Of a stretch of 64,000 nucleotides of DNA, positions 1,849 to 59,507 are shown in pieces; within the stretch, counting starts at the first letter, position 1; every line of letters starts with the position of its first letter. The notes beneath the pieces are model-generated. The model searched no databases. It was given only the letters and a program-made list of their open reading frames with translations, and was not told the DNA's origin. The DNA is from Rhina ancylostomus (Eukaryota): positions 49,840,928-49,904,927 of the forward strand of contig JARFYF010000001.1 in NCBI GenBank assembly GCA_030265395.1, given 5' to 3'. The translations under genes were made by a program, and so were the position numbers.

Positions 1849-2498
1849 TCAAAGTTGAGTTTATTGTCATGTACACAAGTACATGTATGCATAAGTGCAA
1901 TGAAAAACTTGCTTGCAGCAACATTATAGGCACTCAGCATTATATGGACCATTCACAAGAAAACAAACTAAACATAAATCATGCACACTTTTTGCATAAA
2001 AGAACACAATTGGAACAAAAAAATGTCCATTTGGTGATAAGTGGTCATAGTGTTGCTAAACTGTAGTGATAAGAATTACGCTGGCCCATTCAAAATCTGA
2101 ATGGNNNNNNNNNNNNNNNNNNNNNNNNNNNNNNNNNNNNNNNNNNNNNNNNNNNNNNNNNNNNNNNNNNNNNNNNNNNNNNNNNNNNNNNNNNNNNNNN
2201 NNNNNNNNNNNNNNNNNNNNNNNNNNNNNNNNNNNNNNNNNNNNNNNNNNNNNNNNNNNNNNNNNNNNNNNNNNNNNNNNNNNNNNNNNNNNNNNNNNNN
2301 NNNNNNNNNNNNNNNNNNNNNNNNNNNNNNNNCCTGTGCATTCGAATTGGTACACTAGTCCATGTTGCAACCAGTCAGGATACTTTCAACTGTACTTCTG
2401 TAGAAGTTCATTTGAACATTTGGTGACAATCCAAACCTCCTTAAACTCCTAAGAAAGAAAAGACATTGAAGTGCCTTCCCTGTAATTGCATTTATGTG
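1849..2498 (-). mobile_element. Rex1/Babar LINE 3' fragment spanning a gap
   Basis: Tail tttattgtcatgtacacaagtacatg; 2350-2490 is similar to 50090-50220 of the clearer Rex1 copy. Confidence 0.7.
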
Positions 2499-3980
2499 AT
2501 CATACCTCCTCAGTGATGTAATGGCCAACTGGTGATCATTCGCTTAGAGATGGAACTAATATGTCTCTCTTTTGGGCTAAACTGACTCCAAAGTGGCAAA
2601 TGCAGTTAGTGGCGGGTTGGAGCAGAGTGAGGCAGGGCCACATCTCGTGACACTGCTAATGTCACATGAATGAGATGTGCAAGTACAGATGACTGACACT
2701 CTTCCAATTCATCTGAGTTACCACTACAAGCCAAAATCCTGAGGACTCAGTATTTTGGCTGTACAAATGCTGGAATGTTTTAGCTGCTTCCTTTCCAGCA
2801 GTACTTTTGGTCACAACTTGGAGGTACTCGAGCACTGGCTCGACCAACCTGAATCTAACCTCCTTGGATTTATGTCAATTGGTGAATGTATGTAGATTCA
2901 AAACACTTAAGTATTGTAATCTTTGCACACTTCAGGCAATACAAATTTATCTCTGAGCAGGGGAAATTTCAGAATGCATTGATGTCTCATCCAATAGAGG
3001 CAGCAGGATATACAGTGGAATTAACTAGCAGAATTTGCTTTAATAACTACTACTGCCAGTTCTATCTAAAAAAGGGGAGAAAAGAGGCTAGTGAACAGCT
3101 GCAGGCATGCAAAGGTCATGAACGCTGGAGCTGCTGACCAGATTCCAGACAGGTAATGAATGGAGCTTTGTGAGGGTTCGATATTGCCATAGGATTGACT
3201 GTGGCTTCTTTTCTGGATCTGGTTAAAAGGCATCAGGATCCTGTGACATTACAAGAACTCTTTACGTAAATTTCTAAGGATGAATAATTAGATCTGAGGG
3301 TTCCAGGAGGGTGAATGACCTATGTTCAACTGCAGATCGTGTGTGGAACCTTTCCCCAAGGGGAGAAAAGAAAACATTTTCAAGTGTTCACTACAGATAT
3401 CAGAGGAGTATATTGACTGCTTGCCGAACCCTGTAGGATAATATTGGAAGTGGCTGACACCTAGAGGGTAGGTAACCAGTTCTTTATAACTATACACACT
3501 GTACTGGCACATCACCTCCCCCACCACACTCCCTGCAGTTCCAGTGGTGGGCACACTTAAGGCCAATAGCCAAGTTGCCATGCCAAAAGAATAGATAGGG
3601 AAATGAAACTAAGGCCAAGATTAGATCAGCCATATGAACAGTGGAGTAGACTTGGAGGTCCAGGTGGACTGTTCCTGATTCTATACGTGTTTGTATTTGT
3701 CAAGATTTGCACAATTCTTTACTCACCATTCGGAATGGAATTCCTTGGGCTATTCCACCAGCTTTCTAGCATAACAAAATGAAGCCACTTGGATAAAGGC
3801 CAGGACTTGGATACCCTGGGTTCTGAGCACGTTCGTAAAATCCCATGCTGTTGGTGGGCTGGATGAGCTCTTATTGCTGAGGGGTGTGGACACAGACTCC
3901 CTGTTCACCTAGAGAGACTTGGTGTTGGAGTAGACACCAGTGAACCACTTGGTCAGGACTTGCTATTCTGAATCTAGTAA

Positions 3981-4218
3981 GGGGCGGCACGGTAGCATAG
4001 TGGTTAGCACAATGCTATTACAGCGCCAGCAACCTGGGTTCAATTCCCACCACTGCCTGTAAGGAGTTTGTATGTTCTCCCGTGTCTGCATGGGTTTCCT
4101 CCCGGTGCTCCGGTTTCCTCCCACGTTCCAAAGACGTACGGGTAGGTTAATTCAGGGTTTAAAAATGGGCTGTGCGGACTTGTTGGGCCAGAAGGGCCTG
4201 TTACCATGCTATAAATAA
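3981..4218 (+). mobile_element. Full-length tRNA-derived V-SINE (HE1-like) with CR1-type tail
   Basis: A box tagcatagtgg, B box gggttcaattccc, V core gggtttcctcccggtgctccggtttcctcccac, tail ttgggccagaagggcctgttaccatgct. Confidence 0.9.
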
Positions 4219-6145: not shown

Positions 6146-7095
6146 TCACAGAGTCATTCAGCATGGAAATAGGCCCTTCTGCCCAACTGGTCCATGCCAA
6201 CCAAGCTGCCCATCCAAGCTAGTCCCATTTGCCCATGTTTGTCCCATAACCTTCTAAAGCTTTCCAGTCCATGTATCTGTCCAGCTGTCGTTTAAAAGTT
6301 GTTATTGTACCTGCTCCAAGCAATTCCTCCAGCAGCTTATTCNNNNNNNNNNNNNNNNNNNNNNNNNNNNNNNNNNNNNNNNNNNNNNNNNNNNNNNNNN
6401 NNNNNNNNNNNNNNNNNNNNNNNNNNNNNNNNNNNNNNNNNNCCAAGCAATTCCTCCAGCAGCTTATTCCACATATAGATCACCCTTTGTGTAAATAAGT
6501 TGTCTCTCAAGTTCCTTTTAAAGCTTTCCCCTCTCACATTAAACCTATGCCCTTTACTTCTTTATTTCCCCAACCCTGGGACAAAGACTGAGTGCATTCA
6601 CTCACATGATTTTATACACTTCTATAAGATCACCCCTCAGTCTCCTACACTCCAAGGAATAAAGTCCTAGCCTGTCCAACCTCTCTCTCTAGATCAATCC
6701 TTCAAGTCTAGGAAACATCCTTGTAAATCTTTTCTGCACTGTTTCCAGTTTAATAATATCTTGCCTGTAGCAGGGTGACCAAAACTGAACACAAAACTCC
6801 AAGTGCAGCCTCACCAGTATCTTGTACAACTACACTGTGATTTCCCACCTTCCTATATTCAGTGCCCTGACTGATGACCAGTGTGCCAAAAGCTGCCTTC
6901 ACCACCCTGTCTACCTGTGACTATACTTTCAGGGAATCATGTACCTGAACTCCAAGGTCTTTCTGTTCTACAACAGTCCACGGCCCTGCCGTTCACTGTG
7001 AAAATCCTACCTTGATATGACTTTCCAAAATGCAACACCTTGCACTTAACTGAATTAAACTCAATTTGCCAGTCCTTGGCCCACTTACTCAGTGA
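6146..7095 (-). mobile_element. CR1 LINE 3' fragment (younger), inserted in the older CR1
   Basis: ORFs KWAKDWQIEFNSVKCKVLHFG, FTQRVIYMWNKL and ITTFKRQLDRYM; CR1 3' end gggcagaagggcctatttccatgctg. Confidence 0.9.
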
Positions 7096-8287: not shown

Positions 8288-8535
8288 ATAAGATATCTTT
8301 ATTAGTCACATGTACATCGAGACACACAATGAAATGTATCTTTTATGTAAAGTGTTCTGGGGGCAGCCCGCCAGTGTCGCCACACTTCCAGCGCCAATAT
8401 AGCATGCCCACAACTTCCTAACCAATACATCTTTGGAATGTGGGAGTAAACTGGAATACCCGGAGGAAACCCACACAGAAATGGGGAGAACATACAAACT
8501 CCTTGCAGACAGTGGCTGGAATTGAACCTGGGTCA
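8288..8535 (-). mobile_element. V-SINE, 5'-truncated, with alternative (Rex1-like) tail
   Basis: B box and V core on the minus strand, then ggttaggaagttgtgggcatgct...gatgtacatgtgactaataaagatatctt. Confidence 0.85.
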
Positions 8536-9699
8536 CATCCTGGGTGGGATGAGGTTACAATTGACTGAGGCATATCTGAAGCAGATATATAATTACTCTG
8601 GCTACCAGAACACCCAAAGGCTGGGTATTCTGCATTTTGGGAGTCTAATCCTTTTTCTGCAAAACTGTACTACACCTTACAAGGCACAGAAAGAGAATGG
8701 CATACAATCCACTAGTCTGGATGATTGCAGTCCTGCCTGTTCTTGAAATATGACATCATGCTGGGCAAAGTTGCTTGCTTTATTTGGCACATCATTCACT
8801 AACCTGACCATTATAATGCACTGTGCCTGAAGTATCTACCTTCAACAAAATTCAATGCAGTGACTTGCCAATTTTGCTGATAGTGTCAAACTGGTAACTT
8901 CTATCACGTAAGTGGACAAGGGAAACAATGAAATGGAAACATCACAATTTGCAGGCTTGCCTCCATGTAATGCACCACCTTGATTTGGATGTAGGTCTGC
9001 ACTTGTTCCTCGTAACCTGGTCAGCATCCTGCAGCTCCTATTAGCAATGTGGGAGGATCTTCACACACTGGAACAAGAAGACAGTTTCCTACCACCTTCC
9101 CAAGGCATATCTGGAATGATGACAAAATGTTAACCTGCCAATAATATGAATGAATAACAGTGAAGAAATACTCATCTTCTCATCTTTTTATCTTTCCTGT
9201 GGTGCGAAATATCTGTGTTTGTTTTATCACAGCTGATGAATATCAGCCACAACCAAGTTGTCATGCTAAAGCATATTCATCCACCCATTGAGACCAAGCA
9301 AAACTAATCATCCTTTTGCATCCCTTACTATCTTTTGTGCATGTTTGCTTGGACAGCTACTAATGCAAAGTGCTACCCCAAAGACTGAAACCAAGCTATG
9401 CTCTGTCATGGTTCCAACCAGCTTTCATATGTAACCTTTAAATGGTGATGAAATAGTTCAATTGCACAAGCTAGATTCAACTGGTGGTTTATGCTCATAA
9501 TAATATTCACCATGTGTAGTTAGCTTCATGAACGATAGAATTATGATATGGAAGTATGAATTTTGTGTGCCCTATGGTCAGTTAAAGGGCCTTGGGTTAA
9601 TCATGCATCATAATTCCAGTGCCCATTTTCCATCACTATCCATTGTAGCTCCTTTTTAATTTTTTCTGTTATTTTTGTTTCCCTTGCCTTTCATCACTC

Positions 9700-10049: not shown

Positions 10050-10831
10050 ATGGGATGTGGTGAGTGATTTAGATAAGAACAAAGGTGCAAAGGCATAGAG
10101 GGAGCAGTTTATCAAGTTGACAGCAGCAGAGCAATTGGCACAGTGACAGATTGGAGGTGAGGGAATTGCTGGTTTGACCATGAATGTGTGAGGCAGTAAC
10201 TGGTGGTTGCAGGGCAGTGGACTTTGTGGTAGTTGAAAAACATTATTACAACTGCTTTGTGATTGGTTGTGGATTTTCAGTAGCTGTTAAAAAATTTACA
10301 TTCTGCCAAGTCAGTAACATTACAACACTCCGAAGTTAATTAATGGGCCCTGATGCCCTCCGGGACATTTTTGAGATGCGATTAAAGTCTCTTTTTTAAC
10401 TCAGTCTCACATTTAAAATTGTCCTTGTCAGGGTCTAGAAATTGTTCCACACATTTTTTGGCATTAACACAGGATTATGGATCACTCTAATGCTGTAGGT
10501 AGAAATCACATAATAGGCAAGAGTTTCAATGATGGTTCACAGGGCAGAGATTTTGGGTTTCCATGTGTAATACAGCCCTGAAAGTGGCATTATTGGTTTC
10601 AGTGCAACATTCCCAAGTTGGCATAGTTGGTACAGGTCTAATCACCTCTCAAAACTGAACAAGCAACACTCTGCTAGGTACAAGGGAGTGTTGCTGCTGA
10701 ATGAATGGTTTGTGTAATGATAGAAGGATGAGAGAGGGGCTCAGGAGTACCTGGACAAGCTGATGAAGAGCAGTGCCTGCAAGACATCCCTAACTTGAGT
10801 ACAGAGCTTTGGTGACTTCCCTAGTGTGAGA

Positions 10832-10990
10832 AACACTATGATACTTGAGGAACTCAGCAGGCCAGGCAGCATCTGTGGAGAAAAGCAGGTGCTTGCTTTC
10901 CTCCACGGATGCTGCCTGGCCTGCTGAGTTCCTCTAGTATCATTGTATTTTTCATCTAGATTCCAGCATCTGTAGTCTTTTGTTTCCCTC
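10832..10990. mobile_element. Fold-back (palindromic) Penelope-like element
   Basis: 52-bp inverted arms with 4 mismatches at 10838-10943; flanks gtgtgaga/gtatgaga resemble a TSD. Confidence 0.7.
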
Positions 10991-20749: not shown

Positions 20750-20895
20750 GCCTGATGTGGTCCGGTCAAATCTCCTCAAGCTTGTGTTGACATGCATTTT
20801 TTCCCTCCACCGATGCTGCTTGACATTCTGAATTCTTCCAACATTCTGATTTTTATTTTGTTCCAGATTCCAACATCTGCAGTCTCTTTTGTCTT
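20750..20895 (+). mobile_element. Short Penelope-like terminal-repeat fragment
   Basis: cctgatg...ccaccgatgctgcttgacattctgaattcttcca...ccagattccaacatctgcagtc. Confidence 0.55.
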
Positions 20896-22959
20896 CACCT
20901 CCTCAGACTTCTTCACTTCTAAGTGAGAGCCTGATACTCCCAGATCCAGTCAAAATTGCTTTCCTCATCATCTAAACTTGTACTTCACTCCAGGACTGCC
21001 TTTGGTGACAAGAATTCAGCACCATTAGTTTTATCTTGTGCTGCTATCAATGCACTTTAGGAAGTTAACCTCCCTCGGTACTCTGGGAGACTTAACTCCC
21101 AGTCCTAATAACTTTTCTACAAAGGAACACCAGGAATAGCAGTAGGCCACTCAACCCCTTGAGCTACCTCTGCTGTTTAATTGGCTCATGGCTGATCTGC
21201 ATCTGTGTTCCTTCTACCCACCTTTGCTCTACATCCTTTATTATCTTCATATAACAACCATCTTGGTATTGTGAGTCCAATTATCCTAACACTCATAGCC
21301 TTTGGGGGGAGAGAGCTCCAGATTTCTGCTCCCATTTCTACTTACAACACCACTACCTTACACAGTCAGGCTTGCTTTTGAATATTTATTTTTTCAGGGT
21401 GGTTCTTTCACATCTTCCCATGAGGTAGGAAATTTTTATTGTCTAGTGAGACTNNNNNNNNNNNNNNNNNNNNNNNNNNNNNNNNNNNNNNNNNNNNNNN
21501 NNNNNNNNNNNNNNNNNNNNNNNNNNNNNNNNNNNNNNNNNNNNNNNNNNNNNTTTATGGTCTAGTGAGACTTGGCTGTTGCTTTTAAGAGAAGCTCTTA
21601 GTAACTGAAGCCATTAATAGACATCTGAGATCAATCAGAGGCCATTGTAAATGCATATAAATTTCAAACTCTGGGAACTAAAATTGACTGTGTTCTTTTC
21701 CTGAACATTTTAACATCTGATATATGATAGATGTAAGTTGAATACAGGATTTTTAGACAGATTGTTAGACTGATAGCTTTATTTAAAAACTCTGGAGTAG
21801 ACATATCACCTTTTGATTGACAGCAGCAATATATAAATTTCCTTATTAATTGAATAGCATTAGAGAGGCTCTCCAGCCTAGCAAATGACAATTATCAGAC
21901 TGAGGACCACCTTTATTGTATGGACATGAATTATTTAGGCATGGTTAATAATTCAAAGTTTTGCTAAGTTTGACCACAGGGATAACACTGAACTGTTGGT
22001 TTGTTTTATCCTACACAATGTTGACAAGTAAATTGGAATTTAATATATGGGCCCTCCATCAGAAATATCTTGAATTAATTGTCAGCAGTAGCTGTGTAGT
22101 GATAGTTTTAATATGCAGTCATAAGCACCATAAGTCTACATTTTATACTGAGCTTAGAGTAGAAATTAATTCCTTTTTCATTTCTTGCTGTTTGGAAGGA
22201 GCTAGAGAAGACCTTAATTGGAAATGTAGAAATCAAATCAAAGAGCAGATTTGTGCACTAATCAATTGAATGACAGTAGAGAGTCGATTGTTGAATGTGA
22301 TCAAGACCTTTTACAACTTGCATTATTGCCCAATGGCTGTGCAGAAAGGGAATTTACATGAAACATGCAGAAAGTGCAGGAATGCAATCAATCTTCATCC
22401 AATGGCCAACTGAGTCCTCCCACTGAAATTGATTTGCCCATGTGTGACTACTACCCATTGTGGACCATTCCCAGGAAATCAAAGCTGATTATCAGTTTCT
22501 CGTGGATGTGTTGGAGAGAGAGCTGGAGTTGAACTCGCTACAATCAGTCACACAAGTTCAGAGCAGCAGAAACTTGGGAGAATTCTGAACATTGCTGAGG
22601 TGATGCCTTTTGCTTGTAATCTGAAGAGCGAAAATCAGAAGCAGGAGCAGATCGCACAAATGCCAAGCCTTCCTCACAGAGCAAAAGAAGGGCTCTGGCC
22701 AGTGGACCCTATCCCCGAGTCTGCCACAGGCCTTGTCCTCACTGCCACCTGCAAGAAGAGCAATGACCCAGCAGTGGTAATGAAGATCAGTCACCATGCC
22801 TGCATCACTCTGTTCGGTTGAAGCCACCCTGAACTACTTAAGCTGTAGAAGTGGTGGGTGAGTGGTAAATATATTCCTGTGTTAGTCTACCATAACCTAT
22901 TGGTGCATTGGATGTCATGGTTGCTTTCCAATAAAGAAGAGAAGAATTTGCATGAGCAA

Positions 22960-23930: not shown

Positions 23931-26869
23931 TTGAACCAGGGTAGACATCACTCTCTCTTCAGAATGATATGGATTAGTTGACAGAGCCTGGCATTTCTTG
24001 TGCATTTAAAATAAGAAAGATGTAAAGTTGGAGAAAAGATGATGCAGGGACATGTTTAAACAACACGTGTGGTATAAGACAGGAGATTGTGGGATGAGGG
24101 GCAAGTAGAATAGAATTTACTACAAGCATACCTCAAACATCTTTGAACTGCTGCTCACTGCTGGGTCTGTGGTGGCTCAGCCTATTATTGCCATCACCTT
24201 CTTCTCCTCTGACCAACTTAGCCTGTGGACTGATATGTGAACCGTTCCATTCCCCAGCCCCAACCCATGAACCTGCTGCTGCAATCTGTGCTGAGATGTG
24301 AAACCTGCTGCAAGAGAGGGGGAAGAACTTCATTGAGTGTGTTGCCATGATTGAATTACTGGGGTGAGCTGTGTGGGCGTTGGAGTGGTGTTAAGTGGGT
24401 GAAAGGTGGAACCTGTTACAAGTGGTACTTGATCACAGTCTGAATTCGTCGCTCATCATTGGGATAATTTTCCAAATTTGTTTCCCAGACAGTTCCATCA
24501 AGCATGTTTTAATGACCAATTGAACTTCCAGGCCATATACTTCTGGCAAATGCACTTGTTAATTTCCTTGGGAATAACATAGTGCATAAAGAAATCTAAA
24601 AGGGAGAAGCAGACTCCAGATGTGGGAAAATGGAAATGCCGAGTAGGCCAGGTAACATGTATGGAGAGAGAAATAAATGAAACATTAAGTCTGTATTGCT
24701 CTCCAGAGATGCTGTCTGACTTGCTGGGTATTTTGTGCATATTTGTTTTTTTATTATAACAGAATTTGTCTTATTCCAAGAAGTTAATGTTCATGAAACA
24801 TTCATGCTTTGTACCATGTAAAAGTAATATCTTTTTAACTTGAAAAGGCACAGTTCTTCTCTAATATTTGAAAGAATGGGTGTTATGACTGTACTACAAT
24901 GTAAGAAGGATGCCTTCAAATTTAAATTTAAGCAGATTACAAGTGGGAATAAAGTACAAAATAATTATGTTTTGTCATCTATAATTTAATCCCTATCAGN
25001 NNNAGAAGTGCTCACAAATGTAAATGTGCACAACAAATAGAAATGAAAAGGCTTTTGTAAATTTAATTCTTTGTTATTAGGTGTGACGTAGAATTAGCCA
25101 CAGAGCCTAAAGCACATATACTTTGTTGATGCAATAATAAGGTTCTATGCTGTTCAACTAGTTTTACAAGAAGGTCTCATTAAATTTTCTAATTCATATG
25201 AGTTAATTTTAAATCCATTTGTTCTGGTGCCCATTTAAATTGCTGGTGGAAGGTAAAAACTATTGTAAAAAAAATCATTTATTCTTCAGCACAAAAAAAT
25301 AATTTTAGCATTTCACCAGTAATTAATCAAACCATGGTTACAGAACTGTGACTTTGACTAGTAATACCTCCTGGCCACAACAATTAAATAAAAAACCCAG
25401 AGTGATACTTGTACATACCGAGGACTGTTACTAATTGGAATTAACTGAAATGAGTGAAATCATTCACCAAATAAATTCAAATTTATGTATCTATTCGTAC
25501 TTTGCCTGATCGCAAATGTTTCATNNNNNNNNNNNNNNNNNNNNNNNNNNNNNNNNNNNNNNNNNNNNNNNNNNNNNNNNNNNNNNNNNNNNNNNNNNNN
25601 NNNNNNNNNNNNNNNNNNNNNNNNTTCATTACACTATACACAGCTCTTATTTCCATCAGAATGACATGTTTCATGGAAGCACTTACTGTCACAATGATGT
25701 GGCAGGTTTTCATACAGCAGCAAATTTTTACGTGGGTTTGGAAACAACTTACAAGAAAAGAGTTGGTGGAGAAAATGATTTCTCAATGTGTGACTATTTC
25801 ACCATGGAAACCACATGCAACAATAGTGCAGAATGATTCCAAGTTTGAAATCACAAATTAATGACCAGATATCATTGTGTTTTCTAATCCCACAAATTAC
25901 TGGAAGAGGAGATGACTGAAAGGCATCGTGGGCTAGGGTTGTAAGGGCACTGAGAGTGAGTTATTTTTAGAAATCATGCTGCAAGATTTCATTTCAGGAG
26001 TGTGAGGAGCAAATGGAAGGAGGAGTAGTAGATGACCAAGGGAGAAATTTGCAGCATTCATTAACCATACAGGTGCCAATAAAGAAGGCAACAAGAAGCT
26101 GTATAATCAAAAGACAAGAGATTAGAGACAGATACTTCATGAGACAGTAAACCTGTCTTTTATATCCTCTATATGAGCACAGGCTGTTACAGCTTCTAGA
26201 AAGAGAGCAGGAATGAGTCAAGAATTTGAGGAATCTCCATTTCATGGAAAGCTAGATATTTATTATAAAGGGAAATCCAAGGTTCTTAAAGAAAATTTAA
26301 TTAAAGGAAGTGTGAATGACATACTTGAGGTCAAGGTGGTGTTGATACTTGAAGTAAGGCTGCAATTTGTGATTTTAGCTTTTTTACAACATACTTTCTT
26401 CACACTCATAGTAAGNNNNNNNNNNNNNNNNNNNNNNNNNNNNNNNNNNNNNNNNNNNNNNNNNNNNNNNNTGAACCTTCTTGGTATGTTTCACTGAAGA
26501 CAAGAAGCAATGTTTGCTATCTTTTCATGTCATTTTGATTGAAATTAATAGATCAGATTTATTTCCCATTAATATCTTTGTAACATTAATATCTTGTTGA
26601 GGTAACACTCAACAAGATATTGTTACAAATAGTAAAACACAGAATAATTGCTCAAAGAATCAAATATAGCTTTTATTGTAAATGTAGGGAGGTTGTTCAG
26701 AGAAATGTCAGTTTAAATTTCTTTCATACAAGCTCTTACCAGTTGGTTCATTACTTTATTGACTATAAATGGTAATGGGAAGCTGTCCAGACATTTTGCT
26801 GCTTTCCTTGAATTTAGCTGCTGAAGCAGATGACCCTAGAGATGGTCAAGGAAGAAATTTGCTATACCG

Positions 26870-27170: not shown

Positions 27171-27180
27171 ATAGAAGTTC

Positions 27181-27265
27181 TGTCAGAATGTTGAGCAAAG
27201 AGCAAGCTCGCAGAGAACCCAAATGCGGCACACCGATACAGGACTGGAGTCAGGATACTTCCTCA
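27181..27265 (-). repeat. 3' LTR, visible part only (rest in gap)
   Basis: Aligns without gaps to 30634-30718. Confidence 0.9.
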
Positions 27266-27365
27266 NNNNNNNNNNNNNNNNNNNNNNNNNNNNNNNNNNN
27301 NNNNNNNNNNNNNNNNNNNNNNNNNNNNNNNNNNNNNNNNNNNNNNNNNNNNNNNNNNNNNNNNN

Positions 27366-27403
27366 GGAGTCGCACCAGGGAGTGAAACATACATATGCAC
27401 TTG

Positions 27404-27452
<49 letters not shown>

Positions 27453-27900
27453 ACACACACACACACACAAGATCACGATTAATGGTCTGGAAGGGTGCAA
27501 TACTATACTTGAGTCTCCTGATCTACACAAGTAAAGCTCTAAGCTACGGGGAATCTACTCGCCATGTGTCTAAACCCCAAGGACAGCGCAGTCTTACCTA
27601 TAGGGGCCTCGGCCCTGGTGTCACCAGCAAAAGAGGTCGAATGGAGCTAATGTGTGGGTTTTATGGAGCTCGACTGGGGTGGAGTTACCTGGGTGACGTG
27701 GTCAGGCCAATAGTCCGAAATTCAAGGACAAAGTTGAGTCCTCAGGGCCAATCTCCAAGGTGTGTACTTGATGGTTGGGCGGAGCCCGACCTGTGATTGA
27801 CAGTGAGCCGACCCGTGATTGTCATTGCTGTCACTTCCGACCAGGTGAACAATGGTGAATACTACTTGCCTATCACATGGTAGCCCTATACTTTTCTACA
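27366..27900 (-). mobile_element. Putative nested LTR of an unrelated family, containing (TG)n
   Basis: Minus strand starts TGTAG exactly at the edge of the RT fragment; CCAAT, CRE-like ccacgtca, cataaaa TATA-like box and ag|gtaaga donor; no similarity to the host LTR; other end is in the gap. Confidence 0.5.
27405..27468 (+). repeat. (CA)n microsatellite
   Basis: Directly visible. Confidence 0.98.
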
Positions 27901-28280
27901 GCACTCCACTACCTACCAGTTCGCTATATAACCTGTCCCGACGAGACTGGGAAGCAATGGAGGAGTACATCAATGAGTCGCAGTTGACATTCGCCCCTCA
28001 TTCTCCCTGGTAGGCGCAGCATTCTTCTTTGTGAGGATGAAGGATGGCTTGCTGCGCCCATTAATTGACTACCAGGGCCTAAATAACATAACAGTCAGAA
28101 ACTAGTGTCCACTGCCACTCATCAATTCCGAGTTTGAACTTCTTCACGGGGCCACCAACTTTCCAAACTTGACCTACGAAGCGCATGCCACCTGGTCAGG
28201 ATAACGGAGGGAGGTAAGTGGAAGACAGCCTTTAATACCCCTCTCAGCCACTTTGAACACTTAGTAATGGGATTTGGCAG
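27901..28280 (+). pseudogene. pol: Antisense-oriented Gypsy RT N-terminal fragment
   Basis: Reads LYNLS...[10 protein letters not shown]...[34 protein letters not shown]...[30 protein letters not shown], with a stop and frameshifts. Confidence 0.92.
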
Positions 28281-28287
28281 TAATGCG

Positions 28288-29520
28288 ATTTGGAGTTGCT
28301 TGCGTGTCGTGGGTCGAGGCCACTCTGCCACTGCCCGGATCTTCTCAGGATCTGCCCTTCCTCTTCCGCTCTCAATATTGTCTCCTAAGAATCTGACAGA
28401 GGGCTCATGGAATTCACATTTCTCCGCTTTGACGAAGAGCTTGTTCTCCCAAAGCCTCTGGAGAACCCGATGTACTTGCTGGGTGTGTTCCTGGAGAGTA
28501 GCAGAGAAGATCAGGATGTCATCCAGATAGACAAACACAAATATATTTATGAAGTCTCGTAGGACATCATTGATCAGCACTTGGAAGACGGCAGGAGCAT
28601 TGGTAAGGCCAAATGGCGATACTAAGTATTCAAAGTGGCCAAGAGGGGTATTAAAAGCAGTCTTCCACTCATCCCCGTCCCTTATCCTGACAAGGTGGTA
28701 AGCGCTTCGTAGGTCAAGTTTAGAGAAGACGGTGGCCCTGTGAAGAAGTTTGAATGCAGAATTTATGAGCGGTAGTGGATACTTGTTTCTGACTGTTATG
28801 TTATTTAGGCTCCGGTAGTCAATGCACGGGTGCAGCGCGCCGTCCTTATTCCCCAAAAAGAAGAATCCTGCACCTACCGGAGAGGATGAGGGGCGAATAA
28901 TGCCGACTGAGAGCGACTAATTGATGTACCATTGCTTCCCTCTCTGGTCGGGATAGGTTACATAGCCGACTGGTAAGTAGCGGAGCCCCAGGGAGGAGTT
29001 CAATTGATCAATCATATGGGCGGTGAGGAGGCAGGTAAAGAGACCCTTGTTTGCTAAATACCTGCCCCAGGTCATGATACTCCGCTGGGACCCGGGACAA
29101 GTCAGGGGCCTTGGCAGCCGACGAACTAAAAGTTGCTTCTACCGGAGAAATTGCTGACTGGAGACAATTGGAATGGCAGTATGGACTCCAACTGACTATC
29201 TTGCCCGTTGCCCAATTGAAGTGGGGATTGTGGTGGCTCAACCATGGGTATCCATGGACGATTGTTATCTGCGGGGTGGTTATCAAGTGGAATTGAATCT
29301 GTTGCCGATGGTTTCCGGAGATTAACTACGACAGCAGAGGTGTCCGGTGTGTGACTCGGGTCAACAGTCAGCCATCCAGTGCACGAAGCTCTAGAGGAGC
29401 ACTCAATGGCTCCCGGGGAATCCCTGCCCGGCAGGCTAACTTTTCATCCAACAGATTCCCTTCGGCACCAGAGTCCACCAAGGCGGAGAAGTACAGGGAC
29501 TGATAGAGGTGTGGCATGGT
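28288..29520 (-). pseudogene. pol: Gypsy pol: aspartic protease plus reverse transcriptase, truncated before RNase H/integrase
   Basis: ALVDSGAEGNL (protease DSG), [60 protein letters not shown]; homology ends at PTTRKQLQ. Confidence 0.95.
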
Positions 29521-29589
29521 AGATGGCACCAACAACTGGTTCTGGGAGGCCCTCGGGAACGACGTCTGTCTCACTAGGAGCCTCCTCTC

Positions 29590-30617
29590 TACTGGAGAGC
29601 CCTTCCCTGTTGGCCGAAGGGGACGTCACGAGAAGATTGTCAGGCTGGCCGCAGTTGAGACATCTCCCAGCTCTTAATCTCCGACGTCGTTCGGAAGAAA
29701 GGCGCTTTCGTCCCGGTTGAGTTGGTTGGTCCTCTAGGGTGGTGCAATCGACTGGGTCGGGAGAAGCACTCGGGACGGAAGGTGAAGGAGCTGAGAGACT
29801 TGGGTCAGGAGAGTCTGGGAAAGTGACCCGTGGGAGGAATAAAGTTGTGGGTCGGGTCATCTTCTCTCTCTGCCTTTCCTGGAGTCGCCTGGTGGCTAGA
29901 GAGCTCAATGCATCCAGTCTGGTTGTCTCATCCCTGGAAGCCAACTCATCCTTAATCTTGTCGCTGAGTCCTTGCCTAAAACGCCCTGGAGAGCCTCCCC
30001 ATTCTATCCTGAGTCAGCCGCCAACGTCCGGAAATCCACAGTGCATTCTGCGACACTGCGGGAGCCCAGGCGGAGGGTTAGGGGTCGCTTGGATGCCTCT
30101 TTTCCATAGATGGGATGATCAAATACCTTTCTCATCTCCTCAATGAAAGTGTGAGACAAGGAGCAGCTCTCTGTTTGATGGTCCCAGATGTCCGTGACCC
30201 ATTCTACTGCCCTTCCTCGCGACAACCCCACGATGAATGCGACCTTGTATCTCTCTGTGGAGTACATGGAGGGCCGCAGCTCAAAAACCTACAAGCACTG
30301 TCGTAGGAAAGACCGTCATTTCCCAGATCCCCAGTGTAGGTTTCTAGGTCAGGTACATGTGGTTCCCTGGGTGGTTGGGTCATCAGAATGTACTGTGGTG
30401 CTCCAACTGATGGTTCAGGCGGGATAGACAGAATTGCAGGAGTGGTGGAGGCAAGGAGAGCAGACAGTAGGCTGACCGGATCACAAAGCTGCCCTACAGT
30501 CGACAAAAGGGTCTGGAATTCTGCCACAACCCTCCGGAGCTCCTGGTTATGCCGGCCCAGAAGTGAGCCCTGGCTGGTGAGGGCTTCATACAGGGGAAGC
30601 TTGTCCACTGGGTTCAT
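29590..30617 (-). pseudogene. gag: Gypsy gag (sushi/PEG10-like capsid plus degenerate zinc knuckle), frameshifted
   Basis: MNPVDK...QGSLLGRH; KVAFIVGLSRGRAVEW; FIEEMRKVFDHP; DFRTLAADSG; GLSDKIKDELA; RRRRLRAGRCLNCGQ. Confidence 0.9.
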
Positions 30618-30633: not shown

Positions 30634-31029
30634 TGTCACAACATTGATCAAAGAGCAAGCTCACAGAGAACCCAAACGCAGCACACCGCTACAAGACTGG
30701 AGTCAGGATACTTCCTCAGGACAAACACTAGCAGCAAATGGAAGGAATCTTGCCTCAGAGATCTGAGGAGAAATCCCAACACAAACTGGATCTTTGAAAA
30801 GGAATATAGAACACAGAACTGCGCTAGAGTAGACCACTTTTAGCAGCTAAAAGCCAAAGGTAGACCAATACTCTGCCAATTAATGCTAGAGAAACCCTGG
30901 TACTTATGCTAGGCTCCTGATGGGGCACAGGTGTGTGTCGTTATGTAATCAGTTCAGCATGGAATCCATGTGCTGGACAACAAGGCATTAATGGAGCCAA
31001 ATTGAGGGCCAGAGCTCAGAACCATGACA
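30634..31029 (-). repeat. 5' LTR, 396 bp
   Basis: TGTCA...TGACA termini; TATA-like cataagta (minus strand, 30901-30908); directly followed by the PBS and the gag ATG. Confidence 0.92.
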
Positions 31030-31692
31030 AGTTCAGCTAAAACTTCTTTTAAAATGACGCCTTCCCATCTTGGCCTTCATTTAGCATGTTGGGACCAATA
31101 GTCTCCCTTGCAGCGAACATCCACTGGATTCAACCCGGATAAATGATTCTGGCTTTGGAGAATAACTTAGATTCACAGCAGAATCATGATGGTGTACAGG
31201 GTGGGGGGAACCTGGTGGAATATTTCTTGAATGGTTCATGAAAATATTAGAACAAAACAATGGTAGATTCTTCATTTTAAAAAATGATTATTTCTAATCA
31301 TCTTGTGCTTACCACATGAAGGCCAATGAGCATGTAAACTAAATTATAAAAATCTACATCTCATATTTTCTTTTCTTCAAAGACATGCTCTATCATGTAA
31401 GATCAAAAGCATTATGAAACATACTGTAATATATAATACGAATGAACAAGTTAACATACATCATTTGGATCTCACTTTGAACTTGTAGAAGAAAGCCACT
31501 ACTCCTTAGAATTTGCATAACAGATCAATCATCTTGGTCCATTTTCTCATGTATAAGCTCCATTTTAAAATGTAGAACGATACAGAAGCCTATCCTCTTG
31601 AGGAAATAAAAGGCTTTTCCATTAATGTGCCCTTGGTACTGTTCCAAAAACTATTGAGGAAATATAGTTGTACATGTTTATCATAACAAAGT

Positions 31693-32118
31693 GGGTGGCA
31701 CGGTAGCATAGTGGTTAGCACGACACTATTACAGCACCAGTGACCTGGGTTTGATTCCCACTGCTGCCTGTAAGGAGTATGTACGTTCTCCCGTGTCTGC
31801 GTGGGTTTCCTCTGGGTGCTCCGGTTTCCTCCCACATTCCAAAGACGTACAGGTAGGTNNNNNNNNNNNNNNNNNNNNNNNNNNNNNNNNNNNNNNNNNN
31901 NNNNNNNNNNNNNNNNNNNNNNNNNNNNNNNNNNNNNNNNNNNNNNNNNNNNNNNNNNGTAAGGAGTTTGTACGTTCTCTCGTGTCTGCGTGGGTTTCCT
32001 CTGGGTGCTCCGGTTTCCTCCCACATTCCAAAGACGTACAGGTAGGTTAATTTGGGGCTTAAAATGGGCAGCGTGGACTCATTGGGCTGGAAGGGCCTGT
32101 TACCACACTGTATATACA
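31693..32118 (+). mobile_element. V-SINE with CR1-type tail; middle section duplicated across an assembly gap
   Basis: Same head, V core and tail as 3981-4218. Confidence 0.9.
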
Positions 32119-37396: not shown

Positions 37397-37700
37397 GGGC
37401 ACGGTAGTGTAGCGGTTAGCGTAACGCTTTACAGTGCCAGCAACCCGGGTTCAATTCCAGCCACTGTGTGCAAGGATTTTGTATGTTCTCCCCGTGTCTG
37501 CGTGGGTTTCCTCTGGGTGCTCCAGTTTCCTCCCACATTCCAAAGACCTATAGGTTAGGAAGTTGTGAGCGTGCTATGTTGGTGCCAGAAGCGTAGCGAC
37601 ACTTGCGGGCTGCCCCCAGAATACTCGACACAAAAGATGCATTTCACTGTGTTTCAATGTACATGTGACTAATAAAGAAATTTTATCTTATCTTATTTTA
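37397..37700 (+). mobile_element. Full-length V-SINE with alternative (Rex1-like) tail
   Basis: A and B boxes, V core, tail gtggcg-like acacttgcgggctgcccccag...aatgtacatgtgactaataaa(tctta)n. Confidence 0.9.
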
Positions 37701-39009: not shown

Positions 39010-40755
39010 TTTGTGTGGGGCAGATTGTGCCTCACGAGCCAAATTGAGGTTTTCGAGGAGGTGACCAAACAAATAGAAGAAGGTGGCACGGTGGATGTGG
39101 TGTACATCGACTTTAGTAAAGCATTTGACAAGTGGTAGGCTCATTCAGAAAGTCATGAGGCATGGGATCCATGGAGATTTGACTGTGTGGATTTGGAATT
39201 GGCTTGCCCATAGAAGCCAGAGAGTGGTGGTAGATGGAGCGCATTCTGCCTGGTGGTCAGTGACTAGTGGTGTTCCGCAGGGATATGTTCTGGGACCCCT
39301 GCTCTTTGTGAATTCTATAAATGACTTGGATGAGGAAGTTGAGGGCTGGGTTAGTAAGTTTGCAGATAACACAAAGGTAGAAGTTTTGTGGATAGTGGTA
39401 GGTTACAACAGAAGATAGACAGGATGCAGAGTTGGGTGGCGAAGTGGCAGACGGAGTTCAATCTGGAAGACTGAAGTGATACACTTTGGAAGAACGAACA
39501 TGAAAGCGGAGTACAAAGTTAATGGCAGGATTCCGAGCAGCGTGTAGGAACAGAGGAATCTTGGGGTCCAGGTCCATAGATCCCTCAAGGTTGCCGCTCA
39601 TGTAGATAGAGTGGTTAAGAAGGCATATGGTGTGCCGGCCTTCATCATTTGGGGGATTGAGTTCAAGAGCCATGAGGTAATGTTGCAGCTCTATAGAACT
39701 CTGGTTAGACCACATTTAGAGTATTGTGTTCATTTCTGGTCACCTCATTATAAAAAGGATGTGGAAGCTTTTGAGAGGGTGCAGAGGAGATTTACCAGGA
39801 TGCTGCCTGGATTAGAGAACAGGTCTTATGAGGAAAGGTTGAGTGAGCCAGGGCTTTTCTCTTTGGAGTGACGCAGGATGAGAGGCAACTTGACAGAGGT
39901 GTATAAGGTTATGAGAGGCATAGATAAAGTGGACAGCCAGCACCTTTTCCCCAGGGTGGCAATGGCCAATACCAGTTTAAGGTCAGAGTGTTATCCCGAT
40001 TTTAAGTTCCCACTCCTGCCTGCTGCAAAGTTACACAGTGCCACAGATTGATTCAGTAAAAATGTGTTTATTAGCAGTATACCGCCAGGGAGAAGTCTCG
40101 TCAACACTCGTTGAGAGTCATTATCCGAGGTCTCCACAGTACAAAGGAGCAGATAGTAAGTTATACAGACATTGTCACACACACTTAATGAATGCGGCTC
40201 TGTGAGTTTTGGCCAGGCTCCTGAGATCCAAAGACAGACATCACACTTATTATTCAGTGTAATTGATTTACAATCAAGAGATTCAAAGACAGGTATCACA
40301 TTCATTGTTTAGGACAAGCCTCCCACTTACTGTTTAATACAACCACCACCCTCATTGTTTAGTATAATCGGCTTGCAATCAAGTTCTGGACACAGGAATT
40401 GCCACCTAGTCCTGAGCCAGGGGTTTGCCCTTGTAATTTTTTTCATCAGTTATATGTACAGTCACAATTTCTTAACCCTTTACTTCCTCAAGAGGAGGAA
40501 TGTTCAGGGGAGATGTCAGAGGTTGCACAGAGAGTGGTGGGTGCCTGGAATGCACTGCCAGGGATGGTAGTGGCTGATACAATAGGGAAATTTAAAAGGC
40601 TCTTAGAAAGGCACAGGGAAGAAAGAAAAATGGAGGGTTATGGGCTGTGTGGGAAGGAAGAGGTAGATTGATCATGGAGGAGGTATTCACATAGTTCGGC
40701 ACAACACCATGGGGTGAAGGGCCTGTACTGTGCTAAACTGTTCTGTGTTCTGTAT
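39010..40755 (+). mobile_element. CR1 LINE ORF2 (RT) 3' half
   Basis: VDVVYIDFSKAFDK; VTSGVPQGYVLGPLLF; SKFADNTK; LYRTLVRPHLEYCVHFWSPHYKKD; 3' end gaagggcctgtactgtgct...(gttctgt). Confidence 0.95.
39989..40490 (-). mobile_element. Solo LTR (502 bp), ERV class I-like or Gypsy-like
   Basis: TG...CA termini; 4-bp TSD AGAG (39985-39988, 40491-40494); AATAAA on the minus strand near 40070; removing it restores CR1 continuity. Confidence 0.85.
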
Positions 40756-41234
40756 TTATCTGGATAGGTACAGCTTTGTTACCACTCAAGCAGTTCAGCA
40801 CCATCCTAGGCGAAGCTTGAGTAGTACTCCATCTATTACTTAAAACATTCATTGCCTCCACCACCAGCATACAGTGGCTACAATGTGTACCAGATACAAA
40901 ATGCATCCCAGTTACTCACCTAGACTGCTCCAACAGTGCCACCAAAAAGGGCAAAGACAGCTGGTGCATGGAAACATCATCTGCAGGTTCCTCCCACCAA
41001 CCACCCCCTCCAAGTCACTCACGGTTTTGAACTGGAAGTATATCAAAGGTCCTTCATCATCACAGAGTCTAAATTCTGGAACTCCTGACTCAACTTTCCT
41101 GTGGAGTACTTTCACCAGAAGAAATTCAGCATCCCAAGAAATGATGGATGTTCAATGCAGGCCTCGCCAGCATTGCCCAAACCTTAAAAATGAATTTAAA
41201 AAAGGCAAAAAAAATCATCACTAGGAAGCCCTGG

Positions 41235-41668
41235 TGAGGCACGATAGTGCAGCAGTTAGTGTAACACTATTACAGCGCCAACAACCTTGGTTCAATTCCC
41301 GCCGCTGTCTGTAAGGAGTTTGTACATCCTTCCTATGTCTGCATGGGTTTCCTCCGGGTGCTCTGGTTTCNNNNNNNNNNNNNNNNNNNNNNNNNNNNNN
41401 NNNNNNNNNNNNNNNNNNNNNNNNNNNNNNNNNNNNNNNNNNNNNNNNNNNNNNNNNNNNNNNNNNNNNNTGCATGGGTTTTCTTCAGGTGCTCTGGTTT
41501 CCTCCCACATTCCAATGACGTACAGGTTAGGAAGTTGTGGGCATGCTTTACAGGCGCCGGAAGCACGGCTACACTTGCGGGCTGTCCCCAGAACACTCCA
41601 CGCCAAATGATGCATTTCACTCTGTGTTTCGAGGTACTTGTGCCTAATAAAGAGAAAGATCTTGTATC
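41235..41668 (+). mobile_element. V-SINE with alternative tail, spanning a gap
   Basis: Same structure as 37397-37700. Confidence 0.85.
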
Positions 41669-49653: not shown

Positions 49654-50508
49654 ATCAGAATCAGAATCAGGTTTATTATCACTGACATATGCCGTGAAAT
49701 TTGTTGTTTTGCAGNNNNNNNNNNNNNNNNNNNNNNNNNNNNNNNNNNNNNNNNNNNNNNNNNNNNNNNNNNNNNNNNNNNNNNNNNNNNNNNNNNNNNN
49801 NNNNNNNNNNNNNNNNNNNNNNNNNNNNNNNNNNNNNNNNNNNNNNNNNNNNNNNNNNNNNNNNNNNNNNNNNNNNNNNNNNNNNNNNNNNNNNNNNNNN
49901 NNNNNNNNNNNNNNNNNNNNGGTATTGTGAAGAGGGCATGTCCCAGGTGGTGAGGGTCCTTAATAATGGATGCTGCCTCTTGAAGGTGTCCTCAATGGCA
50001 GGGAGGGTTGTGTCCGTGATGGGGCAGGCTGAGTCTACAACCCTCTGCAGCCTCTTTCGACACTGCACATTGAAGCCTCTATACCAGGTGGTGATGCAAC
50101 CAGTCAGAATGCTCTCCACTGTTCATCTGTAGAAATTTGCAAGAGTCTTTGGTGACATACCAAATCTCCTCAAATTCCTAATAAAGTAGAGCCACTGGCA
50201 TGCCTTCTTTGTGATTGCATAAATGTGTTGGGCCCAAGGTAGATCCTCTGAGATGGTGACACCCAGGAACTTGAAGCTGCTCGTCTTTTCCACCGTTGGC
50301 CCCTCAGTGAGGACTGGTGTGTGTTCTCCTGACTCCCTCTTCCTGAAGTCCACAATCAATTCCTTGGTCTTGCTGACATTGAGTGTGAGGTTGTTGTTAT
50401 GACACCACTTAGCCAGCTGATCTATCTCACTCCTGTACGCCCTCTGATTGCCATCTGAGATTCTGTCAACAACAGTGGTGTCATCAGCGAATTTATAGAT
50501 GGCGTTTG
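49654..50508 (-). mobile_element. Rex1/Babar LINE RT 3' fragment
   Basis: AIYKFADDTTVV; IVDFRK...FKFLGVTISEDL.W; NFYR..ESILTGCITTWY; tail (ctgatt)n. Confidence 0.9.
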
Positions 50509-51360
50509 ATGGGTGTTATAGATTAGTTTGGTGGATATTTATAGCGAAGATTTTTTAAGGAGTTTATATCTAGGTCCCCATACTGTTAGACTTTAATTTT
50601 CAGTGAATGTAAATATTGTTTAGAAATGGCTCAGTGAGATTGCAGTCAGATTTGCTTGTAATCTCCTTGGAGCCTCTGCAACATAAACATATTCCTCATC
50701 CATATTATTAGATGAGTATGTTCCTCACACACTAGCAGTAGCCACGTAAAGATATCTAGTTTCTCAATCATATCCATTCTTGGAAGATAATGCCCTCTTG
50801 TGTGGATTGGTTATAAGCTAGACGTTATAATTAACCTCCCAGAGGACAGATGCATTTTGAGAAGGTAGCTTAGACGTAGCCTTATTTGCTGGCACACAAG
50901 ACTAAATTGCCCACTGTAAACTGCAAGGGAAAATAGACACTGAAACTTTGCTGATTTGGATATCTGCACAAGATTCTAATTGTCTGGGTAGCTCCTATTA
51001 GTGCACAGCAATATGTCATAAAAATAACAGTCATTTAAAAAAGATTCTGCCTCTGTTGCTTCAGGCACAGATAATAATCATTCATCTGGCATGCTTCATT
51101 GTGACAGGCAGCATATTGACATAAAAGGAATGTGGCTTATCTGTCTGTGACAGTATCACTTTTCAAACTGGGCACAATGATTCCTGACAAGTCAACATTC
51201 ACGTTCCCAAGCCAGATTTTCTTCTCTCCCCACTCCCCATTTCCCCCCACTACCCCAGTTCTCCTACACAATCATCTCAATTTTAGCAACACCATTGCAG
51301 AAACAGAAACAATGACTATTTGCATGTTAATAATTCCAACAACATAGAAACCTATACAAG

Positions 51361-51513
51361 AGAAACAAAGGATTGCAGATGCTGGAATCTAGATGAAAAA
51401 ACAACAAAATACTGTCCTGAGGAAGGGTCCTGACCCAAAGTGTTGACGTCTGTTTTTCTCCACAGATGCTGCCTGACCTGCTGAATTCTTCCAGCATCTT
51501 GTTTTTTTCATCC
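51361..51513. mobile_element. Fold-back Penelope-like element with hammerhead remnant
   Basis: Inverted ends; internal ctgagga-a-gggtc-ct-gaccc-aaag; flanks agaaacctatac/agaaaactatac resemble a TSD. Confidence 0.7.
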
Positions 51514-51719
51514 AGAAAACTATACTAAGTCATTAAGAAGAATTATTTTCTTGAGAAAGCAGCAGAATATATTGGAATTTTTACCTAAATTTGTGTTCAC
51601 CGAAGAACAAAATATATTTATTCTATAGTCATGAAAGTCAACAGAATTCAGATTGCAAATGGAATAAATGTCTTTAGTTTTGTTTAATTCACAAATGTTA
51701 AAAGAAAGAGGGAGACTTC

Positions 51720-56273: not shown

Positions 56274-56419
56274 TGCCGCCTCACACACCCAATCTTGCTA
56301 ACAGTGAGTTTCAATTATATTTGCTGAAATTATCTGCTGTGACTCTCACAGCACAACAGATAATTTAAGAAAATATACTTGAAACTTGCTGTTAGCAAGA
56401 CTGGGTATGCGAGGCAGCA
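56274..56419. repeat. Long inverted repeat (68-bp arms, ~10-nt loop)
   Basis: About 58 of 68 positions complementary by manual alignment. Confidence 0.9.
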
Positions 56420-59075: not shown

Positions 59076-59174
59076 GCCTGTGTTTGTCCTGAGGAAGTAT
59101 CCTGACTCCAGTCTTGTATCGGTGTGCTACATTTGGGTTCTCTGTGAGCTTGCTCTTTGCTCAACATTGTGATA
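59076..59174 (+). mobile_element. 3' end of a third LTR of the 27181-31029 family (solo LTR, or element hidden in the gap)
   Basis: Reverse complement of 30634-30730 at roughly 90% identity. Confidence 0.9.
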
Positions 59175-59507
59175 GACCAACTTCAAAGTCAAGTTGAATG
59201 CACCAAGAGAAATAAGTAGAAGAAAATAAAGATAGGGTTAAGAGAGAGGCATGAAGAAAAATGACATTTTACACATTTAACATCTGCTGTAATAGTTAAT
59301 ACCTAAAGGAATGAGGTGGTCAGTGCCAGAGAAGTTGGTTAATAGTAATTAACAGATTCTTTTGTTGAAAGGGAAGTTAGACCAAATTGAGCAACGATTA
59401 ATTTCTGTGATGTATCTATTGTAAAAACACAAATTCCACTAGATGCACTGCTTTTAATTGGTGAGGCATAAACAAGATAATATGTTCATAAATATAGTAG
59501 TACAGTG

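What the first reader, a model, noticed from the sequence alone, without database searches (positions are those of the whole stretch)
27901..28987. LTR retrotransposon carrying an antisense copy of its own RT: built-in ~380-bp hairpin
Seen: between matching LTRs and a matching TSD, minus-strand pol stops at PTTRKQLQ (~28288) and abuts a plus-strand copy of the RT N-terminus (27901-28280). That copy pairs with ~28606-28987 across a ~325-bp spacer. The arms differ at about 34 of 215 aligned positions, many at synonymous third codon positions, against 9 of 85 between the LTRs. This suggests capture from a sister subfamily rather than local duplication. Established: inverted-repeat derivatives of transposons, such as maize Mu killer, make hairpin RNA that silences their family. 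Inference: a non-autonomous lineage that swapped RNase H/integrase for an anti-RT segment, acting as a dsRNA/siRNA source or as a packaging or pairing device. This is the best candidate for an undescribed system in the window.
Basis: partly seen in the sequence, partly recalled or inferred. Interest (0 to 1): 0.75.

Follow-up and report, generated by a model that had tools for sequence, protein, structure and literature searches.

The report
Rearranged dead Gypsy retrotransposon copy
A dead jumping-gene copy is cut off inside its enzyme gene and joined to a reversed, more decayed scrap of a relative, so the two pieces could pair as a hairpin if transcribed, but this is most likely a one-off DNA accident rather than a silencing device.

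Summary
The inverted repeat is real: 27901-28286 against 28597-28988, 316 of 397 columns identical. It lies in a decayed fish-type Gypsy (chromovirus-like) element with TG..CA LTRs and a 5-bp target-site duplication. Other family copies leave the window's sequence at 28290 and continue with one shared sequence (76/44/26/10 contigs in four runs), so the junction is an exception. The reversed arm is a separate, more decayed copy: it departs from 16 of 74 conserved RT residues against 6 of 74, does not share the host copy's private changes, and most arm differences are non-synonymous (dN/dS 0.64). 'Swapped for RNase H/integrase' is unshown: an unsized gap hides at least 311 bp of LTR and may hide more. 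Recent sister copies are unlikely; old ones could not be counted, and no listed contig bridged the junction. No transcription or small-RNA data were obtained. Verdict: ordinary retroelement debris, probably from break repair; a propagating hairpin lineage about 7%.

The parts
27176..27180 (.). left copy of element A's 5-bp target-site duplication
   Evidence: identical to 31030-31034
27181..27265 (-). visible 85 bp of A's 3' LTR (its outer end), cut by the gap
   Evidence: 76 of 85 identical to 30634-30718
27266..27365 (.). unsized assembly gap; must hold 311 bp if the LTR is whole, may hold A's RNase H, integrase and PPT
   Evidence: 5 of 11 100-N gaps in the window have overlapping flanks, so 100 is a placeholder; this one has no overlap
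27366..27396 (.). 31 bp of unassigned sequence
   Evidence: no match to A's LTR, to the window or to 80 related loci
27397..27401 (.). left copy of the 5-bp duplication around repeat C
   Evidence: identical to 27901-27905; about 0.2% by chance over 3 candidate ends
27402..27900 (-). repeat C: 499-bp LTR-like element of another family (TG..CA ends, TATA-like motif, (TG)n near its end), probably a solo LTR
   Evidence: ends and duplication; own multi-contig repeat family in 4 of 4 runs with far lower summed depth than pol; 5' end fits the TGWAGNMRR motif of Table 3 in PMC3601003, 3' end does not (compared by eye)
27901..28286 (+). arm B: reversed, heavily decayed fragment of a second family copy, RT N-terminal part, with a stop and frameshifts
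   Evidence: tblastn covers residues 539-670 of P0068 in three frames; 16 of 74 conserved residues departed from; X1 contig 28073-28245 with 0 differences
28287..28289 (.). junction; up to 3 bases that align to neither arm, no long homology
   Evidence: arm alignment ends 28286, family contigs leave at 28290
28290..28596 (-). A's RT C-terminal part ending at KQLQ; the hairpin loop
28597..28988 (-). A's RT N-terminal part; the second hairpin arm; frameshift near 28930
28989..29625 (-). A's protease and PR-RT spacer, with stop codons
   Evidence: Asp_protease_2 E 1.5e-4, below the curated cut-off; tblastn 48-51% identity
29852..30620 (-). A's gag, broken over three frames
   Evidence: Retrotrans_gag and DUF4939 below cut-off; tblastn E 1e-44
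30634..31029 (-). A's 5' LTR, 396 bp, TGTCA..TGACA
   Evidence: 416/280/89 contigs with unlike loose ends behind 31029, agreement 0.32-0.35
31030..31034 (.). right copy of A's target-site duplication
   Evidence: X1 contig 31002-31720 with 0 differences

Best explanation
This is a dead Gypsy-type LTR retrotransposon copy (A) whose pol is cut after the RT domain and joined to a reversed, more decayed RT fragment of a second family copy (B), likely through a single error-prone DNA break repair after A had inserted, and the hairpin is likely a by-product without function. Shown: A's LTRs, TSD and broken gag-pol; B's separate origin and greater decay; the neighbouring repeat C; normal continuation of other family copies at the junction. 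Inferred: that a break in A's pol was repaired by end joining or templated insertion with DNA from an older genomic copy (family copies are abundant, so such a donor is easy to hit); that C came in with B or inserted afterwards; that whatever remains of A's RNase H-integrase lies in the gap or was deleted in the event. If the locus is transcribed from A's 5' LTR or by read-through it would fold into an 80%-paired stem, an incidental double-stranded RNA.
For: B departs from 16 of 74 conserved RT residues, A from 6 of 74 (p 0.036; 9 of 134 with the loop, p 0.003; at the stricter threshold 12 of 61 against 4 of 61, p 0.058), so B has probably been dead longer than the copy that holds it, which fits neither a fresh nested insertion nor a local duplication. 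B does not share A's letter at 3 of 3 listed private sites. Junction has no long homology. 76/44/26/10 contigs in X1/X2/X3/X6 leave at 28290 with one shared continuation (agreement 0.88-0.96); 73 of 80 related loci read through KQLQ. The exact B contig in X1 is 173 nt, unbranched, depth 5.96 against 4.91 for the unique flank; with 3 or more sisters at 2% divergence or less such a contig arose in under 1% of simulations. A is itself dead (stops and frameshifts). Inverted pol pieces occur in other copies: 4 of 80 loci, among them a 128-bp in-place inversion in L022. Filler-DNA repair with deletions is documented (PMC2567098, passages).
Against: No listed contig bridges 28286-28290 (146,260 pieces were not shown), so neither the junction's reality in raw data nor its copy number was measured. 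The simulation does not exclude old sisters (28-55% chance of such a contig at 5% divergence with 3-50 sisters). None of the 40 best-supported difference rows falls in arm B, against 5 in C and 35 in A (471 rows not shown), and at B's frameshift near 28164 X1 and X2 show summed depth 257 and 82 without a listed indel; both could mean that other copies share B's changes, or could be contig-end effects. B's 5' edge coincides with C's duplication, which the model does not explain. The gap content is unknown. X1 may be the sample the window was assembled from.
Confidence: 0.55

Rival explanations
1. Nesting plus deletion: a second element inserted into A in the opposite direction, and a later deletion removed its 3' half together with part of A's pol. 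Also a one-off accident with no function.
For: Gives the same head-to-head geometry; B has its own origin; the unsized gap could hold B's 5' half.
Against: A nested element must be younger than its host, but B is more decayed (16 of 74 against 6 of 74); the 31 bp left of C do not continue B's reading; no other pol or gag piece in the window.
Confidence: 0.15
2. One-off capture during reverse transcription: the enzyme switched from A's RNA to a co-packaged antisense read-through transcript of an old B locus and back, and the chimera integrated here once, dead on arrival.
For: The foreign piece lies between two LTRs with one TSD and replaces or displaces 3' pol, the anatomy of a transducing LTR element (from established retrovirus knowledge, recalled); an old donor explains B's extra decay.
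Against: Needs two switches and a PPT in the gap, unseen; no homology at the junction; C carries a TATA-like motif and a possible decayed poly(A) signal inside the unit.
Confidence: 0.12
3. One reading: a non-autonomous lineage carrying the anti-RT arm spread to many sites and makes hairpin RNA that silences the family or aids packaging.
For: Stable predicted stem; single TSD around the whole structure; long neutral carriage would also explain B's decay; the unexplained absence of B rows in the difference table and the depth at 28164 in X1 and X2.
Against: Recent sisters unlikely; at 28164 X6 has no contig and the single X3 contig does not share B's break although the family is abundant in both; only 6 of 379 21-nt windows pair perfectly and no homogenisation of the arms; endo-siRNAs were found only in mouse among oocytes of 12 vertebrates including zebrafish (PMC10964541, passages); 0 of 80 related loci have this layout (none is from the same host group as far as could be told).
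Confidence: 0.07
4. Assembly artefact: the junction or the joining of the left LTR contig is a misassembly of a short-read scaffold.
For: 23 gaps in 64 kb, 11 of placeholder size; no listed contig bridges the junction; the LTR pair is no closer to each other (9 of 85) than to an unrelated LTR at 59090-59174 (6 and 7 of 85).
Against: No shared long word at the junction for a graph misjoin; fold-back chimeras give near-100% arms (as L033/L034), not 80%; the TSD ties the left LTR to the right one (chance about 0.001); B and the right flank have exact contigs in X1.
Confidence: 0.08

Closest known systems
Fish chromoviral Ty3/Gypsy LTR retrotransposons (Sushi-like; pol with RT, RNase H, integrase and chromodomain PF00385)
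   Same: RT 73-78% identical to many teleost and metagenome proteins with PF00078-PF17917-PF00665-PF00385; gag with DUF4939, order gag-PR-RT, TGTCA..TGACA LTRs, 5-bp TSD. The label 'Sushi' rests on PMC3601003 (passages) and recall, not on a tree.
   Different: This copy is broken by stops and frameshifts, lacks 674 pol residues in the visible sequence and carries a reversed fragment of a second copy plus a foreign LTR-like repeat.
Maize Mu killer (Muk)
   Same: A rearranged transposon derivative whose sequence can fold into a long hairpin.
   Different: Muk is a derivative of MuDR whose transcript is identical to part of the active target, is expressed and yields 21-22-nt RNAs that silence in trans (bioRxiv 10.1101/2020.01.09.900282, passages). 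Here the arms are 80% alike, come from two dead copies, and nothing is shown about expression or silencing.
Filler-DNA / templated insertions at repaired double-strand breaks
   Same: Foreign DNA joined with little or no homology, with or without deletion (PMC2567098, passages).
   Different: The pre-event allele and the left junction are not available, so the event is inferred.

Membership tests
Ty3/Gypsy chromoviral LTR retrotransposon (fish, Sushi-like) | LTRs with TG..CA ends and a short target-site duplication | tested here: met
   left LTR seen for 85 of 396 bp
Ty3/Gypsy chromoviral LTR retrotransposon (fish, Sushi-like) | gag, protease, RT in Gypsy order with RT closest to chromodomain-bearing elements | tested here: met
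Ty3/Gypsy chromoviral LTR retrotransposon (fish, Sushi-like) | integrase with C-terminal chromodomain | tested here: inconclusive
   no RNase H, integrase or chromodomain hit in the window; may lie in the gap; present in the nearest relatives
Ty3/Gypsy chromoviral LTR retrotransposon (fish, Sushi-like) | self-priming leader complementary to the LTR (some chromoviruses, PMC3601003) | tested here: inconclusive
   11 of 13 match, reached by 157 of 2000 shuffles
Ty3/Gypsy chromoviral LTR retrotransposon (fish, Sushi-like) | Sushi LTR end motifs and AATAAA near the 3' end (PMC3601003) | tested here: inconclusive
   5' end fits TGTYANR, 3' end fits 6 of 7 letters (by eye); no AATAAA or ATTAAA in this decayed LTR
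Mu killer-type hairpin silencer | inverted duplication of the transposon itself, arms matching the active target | tested here: not met
   arms 80% alike, separate origin, both decayed
Mu killer-type hairpin silencer | hairpin transcript across both arms | not testable with these tools
   only contigs were laid; strand and level cannot be read
Mu killer-type hairpin silencer | 21-22-nt RNAs from the stem and silencing in trans | not testable with these tools
   no small-RNA data
Non-autonomous LTR retrotransposon lineage | many copies with the same internal structure and different TSDs | tested here: inconclusive
   recent sisters unlikely, old sisters not excluded; no host genome held
Non-autonomous LTR retrotransposon lineage | intact cis signals (two LTRs, primer site, PPT) | tested here: inconclusive
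   PPT and most of the 3' LTR fall in the gap 27266-27365

The most novel reading that the evidence does not exclude
An old non-autonomous Gypsy lineage captured a reversed RT fragment from a dead relative and spread with it, each copy transcribing an approximately 390-bp hairpin against its own family: a mobile Mu-killer-like element in a vertebrate.
Probability: 0.07. Interest if true: 0.7.

Novelty: new member of a known kind. Interest (0 to 1): 0.12.

Why it matters
As read here it matters little: it is one rearranged dead copy of a very abundant family. It is a useful caution that head-to-head RT fragments inside LTR elements arise as debris and look like designed hairpins. If the junction proved multi-copy with small RNAs on both arms, it would be a self-propagating hairpin silencer in a vertebrate, which I did not find described in the searches (open-licence library only, listings read).

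Tried and rejected
No host genome is held, so the junction could not be counted genome-wide. 4 of the 7 listed runs were laid, all as contigs; cover holes and summed depths were not read as copy number except as the weak hints named. Repeat C: a 22-base pattern found 0 matches in metagenome contigs and no match among 80 loci, so its family was not named. RT relatives in viral contigs: none. Rfam: 0 matches in the window at gathering score. Host gene: Pfam scan of 128 ORFs of 72 aa or more outside the element gave two LINE RT fragments and one sub-threshold TPR_TEX10 match that found nothing among solved structures; a candidate exon at 25627-25836 gave no usable atlas hit; whether the locus is intronic is open. 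Self-priming signal not above chance. Local inverted duplication of A's own RT was rejected (17% arm divergence against 10.6%, private sites not shared). Two unrelated elements sharing the TSD by chance was judged unlikely (about 0.001). The 31 bp at 27366-27396 were compared with A's LTR and with B's expected upstream reading and fit neither. Supplements of the papers were not read.

Full report
Observation. The inverted repeat is there. Blastn pairs 27904-28278 with 28985-28608 at 80.7% over 383 nt; a global alignment of 27901-28286 with 28597-28988 gives 316 matches, 65 mismatches and 16 gap columns of 397, with a 310-nt loop. The minus-strand RNA is predicted to fold at -640.8 kcal/mol against -332.7 +/- 8.7 for 15 shuffles, but the stem is imperfect: the longest Watson-Crick run is 26 bp, 39 with G-U, and 6 of 379 21-nt windows match perfectly.

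The host element (A). It runs on the minus strand from 31029 to 27181, with a 396-bp 5' LTR (30634-31029), TGTCA..TGACA ends and a 5-bp duplication at 27176-27180 and 31030-31034. Hundreds of contigs leave the LTR at 31029 into unlike flanks (416/280/89 in X1/X2/X3, agreement 0.32-0.35), which fixes the end and shows an abundant family. Its RT is 73-78% identical to many fish-type Gypsy proteins that carry RNase H, integrase and a chromodomain. Gag lies in three frames and pol has stops and a frameshift near 28930: the copy is dead. Pol homology ends at 28290; 674 residues follow this point in the intact relative P0036, and none of them is found anywhere in the window.

The gap. Only 85 bp of the left LTR are visible before a 100-N gap. 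Five of the eleven 100-N gaps in the window have overlapping flanks, so 100 is a placeholder. A whole LTR needs 311 more bases, so the gap may also hold the missing 2 kb of pol. The LTR pair (9 of 85 different) is no closer than either is to an unrelated LTR at 59090-59174 (6 and 7 of 85); the link between the two LTRs rests on order, orientation and the TSD (chance about 0.001).

A third piece. 27402-27900 is a 499-bp TG..CA unit with a (CA)n tract, flanked by its own 5-bp duplication at 27397-27401 and 27901-27905 (about 0.2% by chance). It is a repeat family of its own in all four runs, with summed depth of 2,100-3,800 in X1 against 70,000-700,000 over pol (not a copy number). I read it as a solo LTR of another family. 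Arm B starts exactly at its duplication, and the 31 bp on its far side (27366-27396) match nothing tested. This coincidence is unexplained.

Where arm B comes from. It covers residues 539-670 of P0068 in three frames, with a stop. The arms differ at 17/22/25 first/second/third positions of 120 gap-free codons; 20.5 differences are synonymous and 43.5 non-synonymous, dN/dS 0.64 (p 0.15), 0.53 in the RT core (p 0.048) (codons touching indels were dropped). So there is a weak signal of earlier divergence under selection, but decay dominates. Against residues conserved in at least 90% of 83 relatives (P0036-P0120 without P0059 and P0096, two distant non-fish hits), B departs at 16 of 74 and A at 6 of 74 (p 0.036; 9 of 134 with the loop, p 0.003; 12 against 4 of 61 at 95%, p 0.058). 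At the three listed arm sites where A departs from the laid contigs (28842, 28848, 28976), B differs from A and, read by eye, agrees with the contigs; B also lacks A's frameshift near 28930. B is thus a separate and probably older copy. That rejects local duplication and later homogenisation, and argues against a fresh nested insertion, which should be younger than its host.

Is the junction a lineage? In four runs coded as four organisms, 76, 44, 26 and 10 contigs leave the window's sequence at 28290 and agree with each other (0.88-0.96): ordinary family copies go on there. Of 80 related loci, 73 read through KQLQ; four have opposite-strand pol (a 128-bp in-place inversion in L022, one perfect 5.5-kb palindrome counted twice as L033/L034, two separate copies in L067) and none has this layout; only 25 of the 80 are 60% identical or more, so this is a weak test. 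X1 holds an exact, unbranched 173-nt contig of arm B at depth 5.96, beside 4.91 for the exact unique flank. In simulation such a contig arises in under 1% of trials with 3 or more sisters at 2% divergence or less, 3-9% at 3%, and 28-55% at 5%: recent amplification is unlikely, old amplification is not excluded. Against my reading: no listed piece bridges the junction (146,260 not shown); none of the 40 best-supported difference rows lies in B (5 in C, 35 in A; 471 not shown); and at B's frameshift near 28164, X1 and X2 show depth 257 and 82 with no indel listed, which could be copies that share the break or contig-end effects. At the same place X6 has no contig and the one X3 contig does not share the break. 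X1 may be the source sample and is not independent.

Mechanism. The junction has at most three unassigned bases and no long homology. The most likely history, inferred: A inserted; a break in its pol was repaired by joining to a reversed piece of an older genomic family copy; C came with that piece or inserted later (0.55). Nesting plus deletion (0.15) and a one-off template switch during reverse transcription (0.12) give the same functionless product. A propagating hairpin lineage gets 0.07 and misassembly 0.08. If transcribed, the stem would be incidental double-stranded RNA; nothing here shows transcription.

Comparison with known systems. It looks like Mu killer only in geometry. Muk's transcript is identical to part of active MuDR and yields 21-22-nt RNAs (10.1101/2020.01.09.900282, passages); the defining arm identity was tested here and not met, the rest was not testable. 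Endo-siRNAs were detected only in mouse among oocytes of 12 vertebrates including zebrafish (PMC10964541, abstract and passages), which lowers the prior for a hairpin-siRNA device in a fish-like host. LTR motifs come from PMC3601003 (passages and section 12); filler-DNA repair from PMC2567098 (passages). Other papers were seen as search listings only; no supplements were read. Earlier scan notes on similar Gypsy hairpins in other genomes reached like verdicts; they are unchecked and not counted as support.

Verdict. A real inverted repeat, better explained as debris in a dead member of a known family than as a new system. Interest 0.12.

Noticed in passing
window 59080-59176: A third LTR fragment of the same family, opposite orientation, beside a 151-N gap; 93% identical to both LTRs of element A; probably a solo LTR.
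   Followed up: partly
window 27402-27900: LTR-like repeat of an unnamed family, present in 4 of 4 laid runs, with TATA-like and CCAAT-like motifs and a (TG)n tract near its end; family not identified.
   Followed up: partly
window 27366-27396: 31 bp between the gap and repeat C that match neither A, B nor 80 related loci; B's 5' edge coincides with C's duplication.
   Followed up: partly
L022 1824-1951: A fish-type Gypsy copy with a 128-bp in-place inversion of the RT N-terminus.
   Followed up: partly
L033/L034 916-6417: A perfect 5.5-kb palindrome in one metagenome contig, probably an assembly artefact.
   Followed up: no
window 31770-31858 and 31959-32047; also gaps at 6343, 21454, 41371, 45828: Contig ends duplicated across 100-N gaps (19-89 bp), so these gaps are overlaps, not missing sequence.
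   Followed up: yes
window 39077-39415 (+), 50126-50515 (-): LINE-type RT fragments (RVT_1 E about 1e-5, below cut-off).
   Followed up: no
window 10827-10954 and 56274-56419: Short palindromic repeats (128 and 147 bp, 83-88% self-complementary) related to pieces at 20784-20899 and 51354-51516; MITE-like.
   Followed up: no
window 3982-4217, 8288-8536, 31693-32116, 37398-37686, 41229-41653: A dispersed short repeat family with many copies and very high depth in the laid runs; SINE-like.
   Followed up: no
window 22425-22467 and 25771-25813: Weak 43-bp direct repeat (72%) inside coding-looking sequence; possibly decayed DNA-transposon pieces; not identified.
   Followed up: partly
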